Assembly: GCF_050920415.1 (NCBI RefSeq)
Contig: NZ_CP169309.1
Source of the DNA: Escherichia coli
GTDB taxonomy: Bacteria > Pseudomonadota > Gammaproteobacteria > Enterobacterales > Enterobacteriaceae
Reading direction: 5' to 3' (one strand)
DNA length: 64,000 nt
Shown here: piece by piece, positions 41,001-50,000 of the stretch
Numbering within the stretch: the stretch's first letter is position 1
Layout of the letters: each line of letters opens with the position of its first letter
Made by a program: the position numbers

Positions 41001-44000
41001 TAAGGAGGAACAATGTCATACTCGCTTTTTGACAAAGACGAGCACTGGCATAAGCCAGAGCAGGCGTTTCTCACCGATGACCACCGGACCATTCTGCGCT
41101 TCGCCGTAGAGGCGCTAATGTCCGGTAAAGGAGCGGTGCTGGTGACGCTGGTGGAGATACGCGGCGGCGCGGCGCGCCCGCTCGGAGCACAGATGGTGGT
41201 GCGCGAAGATGGTCGTTACTGCGGTTTTGTCTCTGGCGGCTGCGTGGAGGCCGCTGCCGCTTTTGAAGCGCTGGAGGTGATGGGCTCAGGCTGCGATCGC
41301 GAAATTCGCTATGGCGAAGGTTCGCCGTGGTTTGACATCGTTCTGCCCTGCGGCGGTGGGATCACGCTGACGCTCCATAAACTACGCTCGACACAGCCTC
41401 TGCTCGCCGTGCTGAACCGCCTGGAACAGAGAAAACCGGCGGGTCTGCGCTACGATCCGCAAGCTCAATCGCTGGTGTGCCTGCCCACGCAAACCCGAAC
41501 GGGCTGGAATCTCAATGGCTTTGAGATGGGGTTCAGGCCATGCGTCAGGCTGATGATTTACGGACGTTCTCTTGAGGCGCAGGCAACCGCGAGTCTTGCA
41601 GCAGCCACAGGCTATGACAGCCATATCTTCGATATTTTTCCGGCCTCAGCCAGCGCTCAGATCGATACCGATACGGCGGTCATTTTGCTGTGCCATGATC
41701 TCAACCGGGAGCTGCCAGTGTTGCAGGCCGCGCGAGAGGCAAAACCCTTTTATCTCGGCGCATTGGGCAGCTATCGAACCCACACGTTACGTCTGCAAAA
41801 GCTCCACGAGCTAGGATGGTCCAGGGAGGAGACAGCGCAAATCCGGGCACCCATCGGGATATTCCCCAAAGCCCGGGATGCGCATACTCTGGCACTCTCC
41901 GTGCTGGCAGAAGTCGCTTCTGTACGTCTCCATCAGGAGGAGGATTCATGCCTGCCCCCGTCGTCGTGATCCTTGCGGCCGGGCGTGGAGAGCGCTTTCT
42001 CGCCTCCGGGGGAAATACCATAAATTAAGAGAAAAATCTGCAGTAGCCGTTTTAGAAAATCACCTAAATCGTTTAAAAGAGCGCCCAACCCATAGTGGGC
42101 GCTCATCGCCTTGTGTAACTTATTCAGCAACGCGCGCCCTCGCCGGACTAAAGCGCACCGGCCTTCTGGCGTGCGGTAACAAAGGTCAGTACGCCAGCGC
42201 ATAGGAGCAGCACGCTACTCATGGCAAACGTACTCTGCCAGCCGAGGTGGTCAAACACGATGCCTCCTGCCGTCGATCCAAGGGCGATTGAAAGCTGAAT
42301 CACCGCGACCATTAGCCCGCCTCCGGCTTCCGCGTTGTCGGGCAACGTACGCGCAATCCATGTCCACCACCCGGTTGGCGCGGCGGTTGCCAGCATGCCC
42401 CAGAGGCCTAACAGCAGCGAGACCATCCAGACGTGATGCCCGGTAAGCATCAGGCTGATGGCAATGACGGCCATCAGTCCAGGTATAGCCATCAGCGTGG
42501 GGTAGAATTTCCTGTTGAGGAATGTCGAAACAACCAGCGTGCCGATAAAACCGGCTACTCCGATAATCAGCAAAATCAACGACAAGCCTGAGGAATCAAC
42601 CAGCGTCACGGTCTCCAGGAACGGGCGCACATAGGTGAATAGCGCAAACTGCCCCATGAAAAACAGGCCACAAGCTATCATGCCGACCACAACCATGCGG
42701 CGGCTAAATAAGCGGAATACCGTGCCAAATGACGTGTGGCTTTTATTCGCATCCATACTGGGCAGGCTGATGCACTGCCAGATAAAGGCGACAACCGCCA
42801 TGGGCACCAGGCACAAGAAAGCGCCTCGCCATCCGACCGTAGCCCCCAGATAGCTTCCCAGCGGTGCGGCCACGACCGTCGCCAGCGCATTACCGGCATT
42901 GAAAATCGCCAGCGCACGCGTGACCTGTTGCTGCGGCACCAGACGAATCGCCGTTGCCGCAGACATCGACCAGAATCCGCCAATCGCCACACCAATCATC
43001 GCGCGACCGATCATATACATCAGATAACTGGAAGCCAGCGCAATAATAAGCCCCGATACGGCCATCAGAACCGTCATTCCCAGCAGCAGGAATTTACGAT
43101 TCATCTTTCCTGCTAGCGTTGAAAGCGTCAGGCTGGTCAGAACCGCCAGTGCGCCGGAGATAGCAATCCCCTGCCCAGCCAACCCCTCCGTCACGCCTAA
43201 ATCGCGGGCAATCGGCGTGAGCAGGCTGACGGGCATAAATTCAGAAGCAATCAGCACAAACACGCACAGGGTCATGGCAAAAATACCGCCCCAGTATGCG
43301 CGCTGATGATGAGGTGATGGTGTTTGGTTTAGCGTCGACATAGTGAAATTTCACGAAGGCCAGGATAAAAGCCACCAGCCTATGGCCGGTGGCTTTGCAT
43401 CAATTCAGGAGAGGTTTTATTTCAGTTTGGTCTGGAAAAATTGTTCGAACTTCGCGAAAGGTATTTTTCCGGCCACGTTATCGTACAGGTCCACGTGATT
43501 TGCCCCAGGTACCACCACCAGCTCTTTATCTTTACTGCCAACCGCCTTGTAAGCATCTTCAGCAAAATAGCGTGAATGTGCTTTCTCACCGGTCACAATC
43601 AGCGTCGGAATGGTGATTTCACTGGCGTAACTCAACAGCGGCATATTCATAAATGACAGCGGCATCGTTGCCGTCCACGCCCCGGTAGAGTTAACGGAAC
43701 GTTCGTGGAAGCCGCGCGGCATGCGATAGTAGTCAAAGAACTCTTTCAGTACCGAATGAGGATTTGCCGGCAGCGTTTCTGGCAGAATGCGCTCGCCCGC
43801 ACTGACCTTGCCGTTGCTATCGACATTAATATCATGACCACCATGAGCGAACGTTCCGCTCTGCGCATCCTTCCAGCGCTGTTCATTCAGATATTGCAGA
43901 ACAGCACGACGGTCGGCGGTAGAATAACGGTCTTCGCCATCCCCCACACCATGGCCCATCGCCCGGCTCATGTCATACATCACGCTGGTAGCAACCGCTT

Positions 44001-47000: not shown

Positions 47001-50000
47001 CCGTAAGCCATCAGAAATAGCCCGTACTGCAAATTTTGATGCGCAATAGACTGCGCCTGTGGGCACAACAGAAAGGGCACCAATAGAACCAAGATTGATT
47101 ATCTGACCGGAACCCTGTGCGTCCATCACCGGAAGTACAGCGCCAATTCCCCAAAGTACGCCTTTGATATTCACGTCAATAGTGAGCTCCCATTCATTTT
47201 GTTTTCCTGCTGCAAGCGGTGAAAGCGGCATAACGCCCGCATTATTGATAAGAACATAAACTCGCCCCCAGCTATCCAGCGCTGCTTGCACGAAATCTGC
47301 CATGGACTGTCGGTCTGTGACATCCAACTCCCGCGCTTTAGCAATTCCTCCTGCGCGGCAGATTTCTTTTGCAATGGCTTCGATACGCTCAAGTCTGCGT
47401 GCTCCCAGTAAAACCTTTGCACCTGTCGTTCCCAGCTCTCTGGCAATACCTTCCCCAATACCACTTGATGCGCCGGTGATTAATATGACCTTATCCATTA
47501 CGTTCTCCTTCAAATGTGTTCGGAGAGATAATAGAACTTTATGATTGGTTCCAGTATCCTGCTTTCAATGTACTCAATGGTTAGCGGCATTAAACAATGA
47601 AAATCGATCTTAATCTTTTACCCATTTTTATCGCGGTAGCAGAAGAGAGTAATTTCAGTAAAGCCGCCGCACGACTGGGCGTTACCCGTTCAGCGGTCAG
47701 TCAGGGAATAAGACGTCTTGAAGATGCATTCGGGACAATGCTTGTAATGCGGACCACGCGCTCAGTTAATTTGACGGAAGCGGGAGAACGGCTGCATAAA
47801 TCGTTGTCATTACCTTTATCCGGTATTGAGGCAGCGTTCGAAGAGATGGTCTCTGACCATGTACCACGTGGACATCTCAGAATCGCGGTGACGTCGATAG
47901 CAGAAGAATTTCTTTCAGGTCCGCTAATCGCTTCGTTTGCAGCTGCCAATCCAGCCGTTACGCTTGATATTGTTGTCACGGATGAGGAATTCGATATCGT
48001 TACCGCAGGTTACGATGCTGGCGTAAGGCTCGGAGAGGTCATTGAAAAAGACATGATTGCTGTTCCCCTTACCGGTAAGCAGCGTGAAATGGTCGTTGCC
48101 TCTCCCTCCTATCTCGCAGCCAACAGCACACCTGTTCATCCGCGCGAACTTGTGAATCATAAGTGTATCGGCTGGCGTCAGTCCCCGGAGGTTGCGCCTT
48201 ATCGCTGGCCATTTGAAGAAAACGGTAGAGCTTTCGACCTTGCGATTGAACCGCAGATTACGACGAATGATCTGCGTCTGATGTTGAGGCTGGCTCTTGC
48301 CGGCGGAGGAATAACAATTGCCACTCAGGAAACGTTCAGGCCATATATTGAAAGCGGTAAGCTTGTATCGCTGCTTGATGACTTTCTTCCACAATTTCCG
48401 GGCTTCTATCTGTATTTCCCACAGCGTCGCAATATTGCACCAAAGCTCCGCGCCCTGATTGACCACGTCAAGGAATGGCGGCAGCAATTGGCTTAAATGT
48501 CTGCACCTGCACTGCCTGATGTCAGAACAGTATTTTGAGAAATTGCCAGGGTTACAATGGCACAAATATGGCACAGGAGGAAAACGTGGTGTAATTGAAT
48601 ATGAGGTAACTACTTGATTTAAATGGTGCCGATAATAGGAGTCGAACCTACGACCTTCGCATTACGAATGCGCTGCTCTACCAACTGAGCTATATCGGCC
48701 CTGAAAGGACATGTTCACGAGCGTGAATCACGGTGGACAAGGTTAAAACTAACCGGGCGATGCGTCAATGGCCTTGTGAATCAAATGGCTACTTTTGCAT
48801 CACCCGGTTTTATTTATGCACGAATGGTGTAATCACCAATGCCGATCCACTTGTAGGTGGTCAGAGCTTCCAGCCCCATTGGGCCGCGCGCGTGGAGTTT
48901 TTGTGTGCTTACCGCAACTTCCGCCCCCAGACCAAACTGGCCGCCGTCGGTAAAACGCGTAGAGGCGTTAACGTAAACAGCGGAGGAATCCACTTCGTTG
49001 ACAAAACGCTGGGCATTACGCATATCGCGGGTCAGGATCGCATCGGAGTGTTGCGTACCGTGTTCACGAATATGGGCGATGGCATCGTCAAGATCGCTGA
49101 CGATTTTGACGTTCAAGTCTAATGACAGGAACTCATCGTCATACTCTTCGGCTTTAACAGCCACCACCTTCGCGGGACCTGCCTGCAACTGCGCCAGCGC
49201 AGTTGCGTCAGCGTGTAATGTCACGCCGCTTTCCGCCATTTGCTTGCTTAATGCGGGCAGGAAGCTATCTGCGATGTTTTTATTTACCAGCAACGTTTCT
49301 ACCGTATTACACGTGCTCGGGCGCTGAGTTTTCGCGTTGACAATCACTTTCAATGCTTCAGCGATCTCTGCACTTTCATCAACGTAAATATGGCATACGC
49401 CTATACCACCTGTGATTACCGGAATCGTCGACTGCTCGCGGCACAGTTTATGCAAACCAGCCCCGCCGCGTGGGATCAGCATGTCGATGTATTTATCCAT
49501 ACGCAGCATTTCACTGACCAGTGCACGGTCAGGATTATCAATCGCCTGCACGGCACCCGCCGGTAATCCGCAGGAATTCAGAGCATCCTGAATCACCGCT
49601 ACCGTTGCAGCATTAGTGCGGCAGGTTTCTTTACCGCCACGCAGAATCACCGCGTTACCGGTTTTCAGGCACAGTGAAGCAACATCAACCGTCACGTTCG
49701 GGCGCGCTTCATAAATCACGCCAATCACCCCCAGCGGCACGCGACGGCGTTCCAGGCGCAGGCCACTGTCCAGCACGCCACCATCAATCACCTGCCCCAC
49801 TGGATCGGCGAGGTTACACACCTGGCGCACATCATCGGCAATGCTTTTCAGCCGTGCGGGCGTCAGTGCCAGGCGGTCAAGCATCGCGTCACTAAGACCA
49901 TTGGCACGCGCGTCAGCAACATCCTGGGCGTTAGCATTGAGGATGCTTTCGCTTTGTGCTTCCAGTTCATCGGCGATTTTTTCCAGCACGCGATTTTTTT

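What the first reader, a model, noticed from the sequence alone, without database searches (positions are those of the whole stretch)
42030..48623. Intact thrW with no prophage; a 6.5-kb variable island of regulators and small-molecule enzymes instead
Established: tRNA-Thr thrW is the integration site of the CP4-6 prophage in K-12. Here thrW (48624..48699) is intact, and the interval to paoD holds no integrase or phage genes. It contains two divergent LysR-regulated units (LysR / SDR; LysR / Cys-hydrolase plus MFS transporter), a DUF1471 gene and the repeat remnant. The content looks like a detoxification or catabolic accessory module of unknown substrate.
Basis: partly seen in the sequence, partly recalled or inferred. 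Interest (0 to 1): 0.55.

Follow-up and report, generated by a model that had tools for sequence, protein, structure and literature searches.

The report
Empty thrW site beside eroding accessory genes
This E. coli stretch has an unoccupied phage-integration site (the thrW tRNA gene) next to a 6.5-kb block of ordinary accessory genes that lab strain K-12 lost through a separate deletion; the arrangement is already in public genomes and is not unusual.

Summary
thrW (48624-48699, minus strand) is intact and identical to K-12's. No second copy of its 3' end occurs in the 64 kb. The interval to paoD has no integrase or phage gene.

It contains, in order:
- an MFS transporter, a secreted Cys alpha/beta-hydrolase (PA2218/YcjY family) and a divergent LysR;
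- an AT-rich stretch with a ykgR/ykgL duplicate remnant and an Escherichia-only 76-90 aa orphan;
- an SDR and a divergent LysR, which is full-length YagP.

The word 'instead' is wrong. The block lies beyond attR and coexists with prophages in O157:H7 Sakai (Sp1 + Sp2) and in strain MFDS1022581 (island 100% identical, P4-like satellite at thrW). K-12 lacks it because of a separate 6.1-kb deletion (42024-48157) that left yagP'.

Counts among 5,426 complete genomes:
- full island: 429;
- hydrolase cassette: 912;
- empty thrW: 947;
- this exact configuration: 38 (e.g. O145:H28).

One nuance: 48555-48608 matches the last 17 codons of HK542/SfX-type phage integrases. This is a relic or extended att homology found in every E. 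coli flank compared here (five strains).

Function is unknown. A LysR-controlled ester/lactone and carbonyl detoxification role is plausible but unproven. The finding is ordinary and already catalogued.

The parts
41013..41969 (+). paoD, the conserved left flank of the interval
   Evidence: Annotated as paoD in relatives at 98.5-100% nucleotide identity.
42131..45709 (.). Three-gene cassette (MFS, secreted Cys hydrolase, LysR). A discrete unit shared with other genera.
   Evidence: Kluyvera genomosp. 1 L2 matches exactly 42131-45709 at 91.5% nt, with different flanks. LysR-hydrolase-MFS are linked in Enterobacter, Hafnia, Psychrobacter, Luteimonas, Sphingomonas, Bosea and Paracoccus. Present in 912 of 5,426 E. 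coli genomes. GC 0.54.
42148..43341 (-). MFS transporter (longest ORF 397 aa; RefSeq relatives annotate 375 aa). Related to NepI, sugar-efflux and Cmx transporters.
   Evidence: NCBIfam NepI E 2.6e-90, but below every curated cut-off.
43417..44553 (-). Alpha/beta-hydrolase of the PA2218/YcjY family. Invariant Cys175 in a G-x-C-x-G elbow; predicted Sec signal peptide when started at M8.
   Evidence: PDB 2HDW (PA2218) E 2e-125 and 5XB6 (YcjY) E 1e-43. C175, H360 and D362 are >=97% conserved among 81 homologues, and C175 is in 81 of 81. Signal-peptide-like N-termini occur across the family. A GGGGA motif lies 5 nt upstream of the M8 ATG. RefSeq starts the gene at M34.
44740..45624 (+). LysR-family regulator 1, divergent from the hydrolase-MFS pair (186-bp intergenic region).
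   Evidence: NCBIfam YafC-like E 1e-55, below cut-off. Conserved next to the hydrolase in 22 of 80 loci.
45854..46128 (+). Diverged duplicate of the ykgR 3' part and the ykgO-end/ykgL 3' region, without ykgMO.
   Evidence: blastn against the window gives 91% to 26540-26673 and 77% to 27350-27489. Those sites are annotated ykgR, ykgM, ykgO and ykgL. RefSeq marks 45854-45922 as a ykgR pseudogene.
46334..46606 (-). Small orphan ORF (90 aa; 76 aa from the internal start at 46564). Signal-peptide-like N-terminus. DUF1471 resemblance unproven.
   Evidence: Pfam YdgH_BhsA-like E=0.14. Homologues occur only in Escherichia/Shigella, carry no Pfam domain, and many are frameshifted. AF2 model pLDDT 62.
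46776..47498 (-). Classical SDR oxidoreductase (240 aa) with TGASSGIG, NNAG and YCASK motifs.
   Evidence: About 80% identical to PDB 3TFO (E 6e-119). Next best is clavaldehyde dehydrogenase 2JAH. An AGGAG motif precedes the ATG at 47498.
47597..48496 (+). LysR-family regulator 2, which is full-length YagP. Divergent from the SDR (98-bp intergenic region).
   Evidence: Named yagP (ECs_0305) in Sakai. K-12 yagP matches only 48158-48496. A homologue carries Pfam HTH_1 and LysR_substrate.
42024..48157 (.). Segment deleted in K-12 and in roughly half of E. coli genomes.
   Evidence: Window versus K-12: matches end at 42023 and resume at 48158, with a 5-bp overlap in K-12 coordinates. Most genomes match only island positions 6129-6594.
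48555..48623 (+). Spacer tract homologous to the integrase 3' end / attP arm of thrW-specific lambdoid phages.
   Evidence: 48556-48606 translates to NGTNMAQEENVV*LNMR, against HK542 Int C-terminus NGTNTAQEENVVYLNAR. HK542, mEp213, mEp043, SfX and HK75 match 48555-48669 at 89-91%. The tract is present in the K-12 attR flank, RM14516 and JJ2434.
48624..48699 (-). thrW, tRNA-Thr(CGU). Intact and unoccupied attB.
   Evidence: Junctions seen in lysogens: 48640/48641 (P4-like elements, Sakai and MFDS1022581) and 48606-48675 duplicated around CP4-6.
48814..50067 (-). proA, the conserved right flank.
   Evidence: Annotated in relatives. Contiguous with thrW and LysR2 here and in 38 complete genomes.

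Best explanation
The window shows the un-eroded, unoccupied state of the E. coli paoD-thrW locus.

thrW is a free attB for several classes of integrative element: CP4-6-type, P4-like satellites, and HK542/SfX/P22-type lambdoids. The 6.5 kb between thrW and paoD is not an integrated element and not an alternative occupant of the site. It is resident chromosomal accessory DNA lying distal to attR.

It is a compositional mosaic of three parts:
1. A 3.6-kb cassette (42131-45709) that has been exchanged between enterobacterial genera. It encodes a LysR regulator, a secreted Cys-nucleophile alpha/beta-hydrolase of the PA2218/YcjY family, and an MFS transporter.
2. An AT-rich stretch holding a ykgR/ykgL duplicate remnant and a decaying Escherichia-only orphan ORF.
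3. The YagP (LysR)/SDR divergent pair.

Different E. coli lineages have lost parts of this block by independent microhomology deletions, or by replacement from the thrW side. K-12's yagP is what remains after one such 6.1-kb deletion.

Inferred function, not shown: each LysR activates its divergent partner in response to a small molecule. The periplasmic hydrolase would cleave an ester, lactone or thioester. The MFS would move substrate or product. The NADP(H)-type SDR would reduce or oxidise a carbonyl. Together this would be a conditional detoxification or scavenging module of unknown substrate.
For: Structure (shown):
- thrW is intact and single-copy.
- No integrase or phage genes are present.
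- Sakai carries Sp1+Sp2 between thrW and a complete island.
- MFDS1022581 is 99.98% identical to the window up to 48641, then a P4-like element begins.
- K-12 deletion breakpoints are 42023/48158.
- RM14516 has a deletion of 46218-48264 with 6-bp microhomology. Strain 100117 has replacement from 46096.
- Counts: 429 full island, 912 cassette, 947 empty thrW, 38 exact configuration.
- Cassette boundaries come from Kluyvera. GC of the three parts is 0.54 / 0.36 / 0.49.

Function (supporting, indirect):
- Cys175 is invariant in 81 of 81 homologues, in G-x-C-x-G.
- Signal peptides are conserved across the family.
- LysR and MFS neighbour the hydrolase in 22 and 19 of 80 loci.
- Aldo-keto reductase, cupin, LbH acetyltransferase, cyclophilin-like protein and a same-subfamily SDR (40-47% identity) recur nearby.
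- SDR motifs are present, with about 80% identity to 3TFO.
Against: - No substrate, inducer or expression data exist for any gene here. Literature searches on YcjY/PA2218 and the Sakai locus tags found nothing functional.
- All NCBIfam hits are below curated cut-offs.
- Whether the full block is ancestral or was assembled within E. coli was not resolved on a phylogeny.
- The hydrolase was not among the best 80 hits kept from other Escherichia species representatives, apart from 'Escherichia sp. ESNIH1'. The cassette may therefore be a gain rather than ancestral.
- The link between the two LysR units rests on 5 of 80 loci.
Confidence: 0.8

Rival explanations
1. The 6.5 kb is the degraded remnant of an integrative element (prophage or genomic island) that once entered at thrW and lost its integrase and attR.
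For: - It sits next to the tRNA 3' end and is variably present.
- Its GC is mosaic, with a 36% GC core.
- A 17-codon integrase 3'-end tract lies at 48556-48606.
- The small ORF has a weak PHROG 'integrase' hit (E=0.005), and IntF gives a tblastn hit (E=0.046) at the same place.
Against: - There is no integrase, excisionase, replication or structural gene, and no att repeat.
- In K-12, Sakai and MFDS1022581 the integrated elements lie between thrW and the island, so the island is on the chromosomal side of attR.
- The cassette is not tRNA-linked in other genera.
- The integrase tract is part of the common E. coli flank.
- The weak hits on the small ORF fall on a hydrophobic signal-like stretch, and Pfam Phage_integrase is not detected.
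Confidence: 0.08
2. One reading: the island is an alternative cargo that occupies the thrW site in place of a prophage, so the two are mutually exclusive.
For: In this window, and in 38 complete genomes, the island directly abuts an empty thrW.
Against: - About 390 of the 429 genomes with the full island do not have it contiguous with thrW-proA, so thrW there is taken as occupied (for example O157:H7).
- About 900 genomes have an empty thrW but only the yagP' remnant.
- The expected co-occurrence under independence is about 75; 38 were observed. There is no positive association between the island and an empty thrW.
Confidence: 0.03
3. The block is a recent horizontal acquisition in a minority of lineages, not an ancestral segment eroded by deletions. 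The K-12 state with yagP' would then be a partial, secondary form of that acquisition.
For: - The cassette is 91.5% identical in nucleotides to Kluyvera and is patchy among enterics.
- The SDR is about 80% identical to a PDB entry (3TFO) that I recall, from memory and untested, comes from an alpha-proteobacterium.
- 1,792 genomes show no trace of the island.
Against: - yagP' fragments with identical breakpoints occur in about half of all genomes across many lineages. This implies that the full-length gene predates them.
- The deletions have microhomology junctions inside genes, which shows the direction was loss.
Confidence: 0.15

Closest known systems
The paoD-yagP-thrW locus of E. coli O157:H7 Sakai (ECs_0305-ECs_0311) and of O145:H28 RM13514/RM12581
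   Same: Same seven features in the same order and orientation, at about 96-97% nucleotide identity. O145:H28 also has the empty thrW directly abutting the LysR.
   Different: Sakai has Sp1 and Sp2 inserted at thrW. The window's alleles are about 3% diverged from these strains and identical only to MFDS1022581.
K-12 thrW / CP4-6 / yagP' / paoD
   Same: Same thrW and same spacer, including the integrase-like tract. Same C-terminal 112 codons of YagP.
   Different: K-12 carries the 34-kb CP4-6 between thrW and the spacer and lacks window 42024-48157.
attP/int region of thrW-specific lambdoid phages (HK542, mEp213, mEp043, HK75, SfX; P22 more distantly)
   Same: 115 bp (48555-48669) are 89-91% identical to the phage int 3' end plus the attP core. 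P22 shares 48597-48669.
   Different: In the chromosome the tract is non-coding, has an in-frame stop, and stops at 48555. No integrase body is present.
PA2218 (PDB 2HDW) and E. coli YcjY (PDB 5XB6), alpha/beta-hydrolases with solved structures and no assigned function
   Same: Full-length homology (E 2e-125 and 1e-43). The Gly-x-Cys-x-Gly elbow aligns in both.
   Different: Here the gene is embedded in a LysR/MFS cassette. No activity is known for any member, so 'works like' cannot be stated.
Dienelactone hydrolase (Cys-His-Asp alpha/beta-hydrolase)
   Same: Cys in the nucleophile elbow, with conserved His and Asp downstream.
   Different: The Pfam DLH match is only a 50-residue fragment at E=0.0085. 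The protein has a different size and a secretion signal. It is not a demonstrated member.

Membership tests
Unoccupied tRNA-gene attB (thrW) | Complete, functional-looking tRNA gene | tested here: met
   ARAGORN and Rfam (71.8 bits). 76 of 76 nt identical to K-12 thrW.
Unoccupied tRNA-gene attB (thrW) | Only one copy of the att core; no attL/attR pair | tested here: met
   The 18-, 25- and 29-nt 3' segments are unique in the 64 kb at up to 3 mismatches.
Unoccupied tRNA-gene attB (thrW) | The tRNA 3' end is joined directly to the flank that lies beyond attR in lysogens | tested here: met
   The window is colinear with the K-12 attR flank (48158-48675), the Sakai Sp2/yagP junction (48640) and the MFDS1022581 junction (48641).
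tRNA-associated genomic island or prophage | Integrase gene next to the tRNA | tested here: not met
   Only a 17-codon 3' tract is present, and there is no integrase body anywhere in the window.
tRNA-associated genomic island or prophage | Flanking direct repeats derived from the tRNA 3' end | tested here: not met
tRNA-associated genomic island or prophage | Variable presence and atypical composition | tested here: met
   Full island in 429 of 5,426 genomes. GC 0.54 / 0.36 / 0.49 against 0.50 for the window. This feature is not specific to islands.
LysR-type regulator with a divergently transcribed target | N-terminal HTH plus LysR substrate-binding domain, about 300 aa | tested here: met
   Full-length NCBIfam LysR hits for both proteins. 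A homologue of LysR2 carries PF00126 and PF03466.
LysR-type regulator with a divergently transcribed target | Divergent target gene across a short intergenic region | tested here: met
   98 bp (SDR/LysR2) and 186 bp (hydrolase/LysR1).
LysR-type regulator with a divergently transcribed target | Regulator binds the intergenic region and responds to a co-inducer | not testable with these tools
   Only a palindromic ATTAAT-N6-ATTAAT at 44667-44684 was seen by eye. No binding or expression data exist.
PA2218/YcjY alpha/beta-hydrolase family | Full-length sequence homology to the solved members | tested here: met
   2HDW E 2e-125 over residues 30-382; 5XB6 E 1e-43.
PA2218/YcjY alpha/beta-hydrolase family | Conserved nucleophile-elbow Cys with conserved His and Asp | tested here: met
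   C175 in 81 of 81 homologues. H360, D362, D201 and H333 are >=97% conserved. A catalytic role is inferred, not shown.
Dienelactone hydrolase family (Pfam PF01738) | Significant match to the family profile over the domain | tested here: not met
   E=0.0085, residues 146-195 only.
DUF1471 (YdgH/BhsA/McbA-like) | Significant Pfam PF07338 match | tested here: inconclusive
   E=0.14 over residues 38-69. The architecture (signal peptide plus a domain of about 54 aa) fits, and one source names a member BhsA. The structure model is uninformative.
Classical short-chain dehydrogenase/reductase | TGxxxGxG cofactor motif, NNAG, and a Ser...YxxxK catalytic motif | tested here: met
   TGASSGIG, NNAG and YCASK are read directly in the translation. 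Strong SDR hits.
NepI / sugar-efflux MFS equivalogs | Score above the curated NCBIfam cut-off | tested here: not met
   303 bits against a cut-off of 584 for NepI; 182 against 401 for the sugar transporter. It belongs to the MFS superfamily only.

The most novel reading that the evidence does not exclude
The LysR / secreted Cys-hydrolase (PA2218/YcjY family) / MFS cassette, together with the YagP/SDR pair, is one horizontally mobile pathway for an as yet unidentified ester, lactone or carbonyl compound.

The hydrolase family has an invariant Cys, is secreted, and occurs in Proteobacteria, Bacteroidota, Campylobacterota and gut Firmicutes. Two crystal structures exist, but no function is assigned. 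This E. coli locus would be a tractable entry point for de-orphaning it.

Separately, the 17-codon integrase tract downstream of thrW could be a fixed scar of ancient integration. It extends attB-attP homology to 115 bp for HK542-type phages.
Probability: 0.25. Interest if true: 0.4.

Novelty: already known. Interest (0 to 1): 0.15.

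Why it matters
The direct value is small.
- It corrects a tempting misreading. The island is not what fills thrW when no phage is there; it is neighbouring DNA that K-12 happens to have deleted. K-12's odd yagP fragment is explained as the stump of a full LysR gene.
- The window and its near-identical relative MFDS1022581 form a natural empty/occupied pair for thrW.
- The only open biology is the unknown substrate of a widespread, structurally solved but functionally orphan secreted Cys-hydrolase family and its LysR/MFS/SDR partners.

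Tried and rejected
- Rfam at E<=1 over 41500-49200 found only the tRNA.
- The repeat search of the interval found no flanking or att-like repeats.
- The promoter/terminator scan gave counts no higher than in shuffles.
- The small ORF had no PDB or NCBIfam hit. Its AlphaFold model was a single low-confidence helix (pLDDT 62, pTM 0.27), so no fold search was run.
- The PHROG 'integrase' hit for the small ORF (E=0.005) and the IntF tblastn hit (E=0.046) were considered as a possible integrase relic and rejected. Both fall on the hydrophobic signal-like segment, the TGxR/RHRY motifs are absent, and Pfam shows no integrase signal.
- Literature searches for YcjY/PA2218 and for ECs0305-ECs0311 gave no functional data.
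- The contig labelled E. fergusonii (L091) could not serve as an outgroup. It is 98.3% identical to K-12 in phoE-proA.
- I did not resolve ancestry in other Escherichia species.

Full report
**1. Observation**

ARAGORN finds one tRNA in the window: tRNA-Thr(CGT) at 48624-48699 on the minus strand. Rfam agrees at 71.8 bits. The 76 nt are identical to thrW of K-12 and of O157:H7 Sakai. The tRNA's 3' end points into the interval, which is the side where CP4-6 lies in K-12.

The 25-nt and 29-nt 3' segments of thrW and the 18-nt P4-type core each occur once in the 64 kb, even with three mismatches allowed. No direct repeats bound the interval.

tblastn with three thrW-associated integrases (IntF of CP4-6, IntS of Sp2, Int of phage HK542) gives no hit at E<=1e-3 in the whole window. 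PHROGs returns only generic MFS, LysR and SDR families.

**2. Content of 42030-48623**

Reading from paoD (41013-41969):
- **MFS transporter**, 42148-43341 (-). It is nearest to NepI, sugar-efflux and Cmx families, but far below every curated cut-off.
- **Alpha/beta-hydrolase**, 43417-44574 (-).
- **LysR regulator**, 44740-45624 (+), divergent from the hydrolase.
- **AT-rich stretch**, 36% GC.
- **SDR**, 46776-47498 (-).
- **Second LysR**, 47597-48496 (+), divergent from the SDR.
- **A 127-bp spacer**, then thrW.

*The hydrolase.* It is a full-length homologue of two solved but functionally unassigned proteins: P. aeruginosa PA2218 (2HDW, E 2e-125) and E. coli YcjY (5XB6, E 1e-43). Pfam gives only weak generic hits, and the dienelactone-hydrolase profile matches 50 residues at E=0.0085.

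I aligned it with 80 homologues from the genome scan. The Cys of the G-I-C-G-W-G-G elbow is invariant (81 of 81). H360, D362, D201 and H333 are at least 97% conserved.

The family carries N-terminal signal peptides, and a lipoprotein-like Cys in Helicobacter. Here a start at M8 (ATG at 44553, with GGGGA 5 nt upstream) gives MKAFTRTLKTAMPTMLLFASLSGVTTMSYA|D. RefSeq relatives start at M34, which removes the signal peptide. I infer a periplasmic enzyme.

*The SDR.* It has the classical TGASSGIG, NNAG and YCASK motifs. It is about 80% identical to PDB 3TFO, and the next best match is clavaldehyde dehydrogenase.

*The thrW-proximal LysR.* It is the full-length form of YagP. Sakai names it yagP (ECs_0305). 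K-12 yagP corresponds only to 48158-48496.

Positions 45854-45987 are 91% identical to window 26540-26673, and 45989-46128 are 77% identical to 27350-27489. Those sites are the 3' two-thirds of ykgR and the ykgO-end/ykgL region. The island copy lacks ykgM-ykgO between them.

*The small ORF, 46334-46606.* It has homologues only in Escherichia/Shigella. None carries a Pfam domain, and many are frameshifted. The Pfam YdgH_BhsA-like (DUF1471) hit has E=0.14. The PDB search found nothing, and the AlphaFold model is uninformative. 'DUF1471' is possible but unproven.

**3. The island is not 'instead of' a prophage**

Four lines of evidence show this.
- **Sakai** has thrW, then Sp1 (lambda-like), Sp2 (P4-like), yagP, SDR, a hypothetical gene, LysR, hydrolase, transporter and paoD.
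- **MFDS1022581** is 99.98% identical to the window from 33030 to 48641. It then carries a P4-like satellite with a DRT3 defence system, plus further elements, before thrW.
- **K-12** has CP4-6 between thrW and the spacer. Separately, its sequence jumps from window 42023 to 48158, with a 5-bp overlap. This is a 6.1-kb deletion that leaves yagP' abutting paoD.
- **The same deletion occurs in genomes whose thrW is empty**.

Other lineages show other losses. RM14516 lacks 46218-48264, with 6-bp microhomology. Strain 100117 has everything right of 46095 replaced by a degenerate element with AbiE and an integrase stump.

Counts among 5,426 complete genomes:

| State | Genomes |
|---|---|
| Full island (>=80% coverage) | 429 |
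| Hydrolase cassette | 912 |
| No trace of the island | 1,792 |
| Only the yagP' end | most of the rest |
| Empty thrW (LysR/yagP', thrW and proA contiguous) | 947 |
| SDR, full LysR, empty thrW and proA contiguous, as in the window | 38 |

The 38 include the O145:H28 outbreak strains, EC42405, KV7 and NCTC10444. Under independence about 75 would be expected. Occupancy and island state therefore vary independently, with the caveat of clonal sampling.

thrW is a textbook integration hot spot (PMC7545054).

**4. The one phage-like trace**

In ST131-type genomes a stump annotated 'integrase' abuts thrW, and its last 54 nt align with window 48555-48608. Free lambdoid phages (HK542, mEp213, mEp043, HK75, HK446, mEpX2, SfX) match window 48555-48669 at 89-91%. 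That region covers their integrase 3' end and annotated attP. P22 matches 48597-48669.

HK542 Int ends in NGTNTAQEENVVYLNAR. The window encodes NGTNMAQEENVV*LNMR at 48556-48606.

The tract is also in the K-12 attR-side flank and in RM14516. It is therefore part of the common E. coli thrW flank. It is either a fixed scar of an ancient integration or extended att homology maintained by repeated phage traffic.

It does not make this strain's site a degraded prophage.

**5. Origin and function**

*Origin.* Kluyvera genomosp. 1 shares exactly 42131-45709 at 91.5% nucleotide identity, with unrelated flanks. The LysR-hydrolase(-MFS) arrangement recurs in Enterobacter, Hafnia, Psychrobacter, Luteimonas, Sphingomonas, Bosea and Paracoccus, never next to paoD or proA. 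The cassette is thus a discrete, horizontally exchanged unit without mobility genes of its own.

*Neighbours.* Among 80 loci, the hydrolase's recurrent neighbours are:
- LysR, 22 loci;
- MFS, 19;
- a cyclophilin-like secreted protein, 18;
- an LbH O-acetyltransferase, 15;
- a DkgA-like aldo-keto reductase, 11;
- a cupin of the mandelonitrile-lyase family, 10;
- a second LysR type, 8;
- AraC, 6;
- an SDR of the island's subfamily (40-47% identity), 5.

This pattern fits small-molecule ester, lactone and carbonyl detoxification. It gives weak support for a functional link between the two halves of the island. No substrate can be named, and searches for functional literature found none.

**6. Verdict**

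It is wrong on the key relational claim.

The configuration and all its genes are already present and annotated in public genomes, so this is already known and of low interest. The residual novelty lies only in the orphan secreted Cys-hydrolase cassette.

Noticed in passing
window 48555-48608 (+): The last 17 codons of an HK542/SfX-type lambdoid integrase (NGTNMAQEENVV*LNMR) sit just downstream of thrW. Phage attP homology spans 48555-48669. The tract is present in every E. coli flank examined, including the chromosomal side of attR in K-12.
   Followed up: yes
window 44475-44574 (-): RefSeq relatives start the hydrolase at M34. An upstream start (M8, ATG at 44553, with a GGGGA motif 5 nt before it) adds a Sec-type signal peptide that is conserved across the family. 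The annotated start is probably wrong and the enzyme is probably periplasmic.
   Followed up: partly
window 45854-46128 versus 26540-26673 and 27350-27489: The island holds an old, diverged duplicate (91% and 77%) of the ykgR / ykgL neighbourhood that lacks the ykgM-ykgO (alternative L31/L36) genes found between the two pieces in the other copy. The island copy may preserve the arrangement from before ykgMO was inserted.
   Followed up: partly
L091 8486-9017 (GCA_048109445.1, labelled E. fergusonii): This contig runs from the true ykgR upstream region straight into the island's ykgR' downstream region. It therefore lacks about 19.3 kb (ykgMO, the ecp operon, paoABCD and the hydrolase cassette). 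This is consistent with recombination between the two ykgR copies. The contig is 98.3% identical to K-12 in phoE-proA, so the species label looks doubtful.
   Followed up: partly
window 48606-56500: The proA-proB-phoE-crl-frsA flank is only about 94-96% identical to K-12, Sakai and most E. coli; 4,495 genomes fall in the 90-95% band. The pao side is about 97% identical, and EC42405 is 98.9% identical. This looks like a divergent allele block next to the integration hot spot.
   Followed up: no
L003 15600-24594 and L090 (NZ_CP169399.1): The strain with the 100%-identical island carries a P4-like satellite at thrW encoding the DRT3a/DRT3b antiviral reverse transcriptases, followed by more mobile DNA (AraC regulator, IS1).
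   Followed up: partly
hits H46 and H259 (e.g. NZ_CP147535.1 923252-925439): About 33 E. coli genomes carry a second, 78%-identical copy of the hydrolase and LysR genes (without the MFS) at another chromosomal place.
   Followed up: no
window 46776-47498 (-): The SDR is about 80% identical over its whole length to PDB 3TFO, a structural-genomics 'putative 3-oxoacyl-ACP reductase'. I recall, without having tested it, that 3TFO comes from Sinorhizobium. Such conservation would suggest that the YagP/SDR unit is also horizontally spread.
   Followed up: no
window 46334-46606 (-) and proteins P0072, P0081-P0087: Many E. coli copies of the small orphan ORF are frameshifted after '...EKEISLQAE'. The gene appears to be decaying in part of the population.
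   Followed up: partly
window 46241-46276: A 36-nt hairpin (15 pairs, 6-nt loop) followed by a T-rich run lies between the ykgL'-like remnant and the small ORF. It is terminator-like and its function is unknown.
   Followed up: no
loci L004-L083 (neighbours of hydrolase homologues): In Bacteroidota, Campylobacterota and other phyla the hydrolase recurs next to a cyclophilin-like secreted protein, an LbH O-acetyltransferase, a DkgA-like aldo-keto reductase and a cupin that scores above the NCBIfam cut-off for (R)-mandelonitrile lyase.
   Followed up: partly
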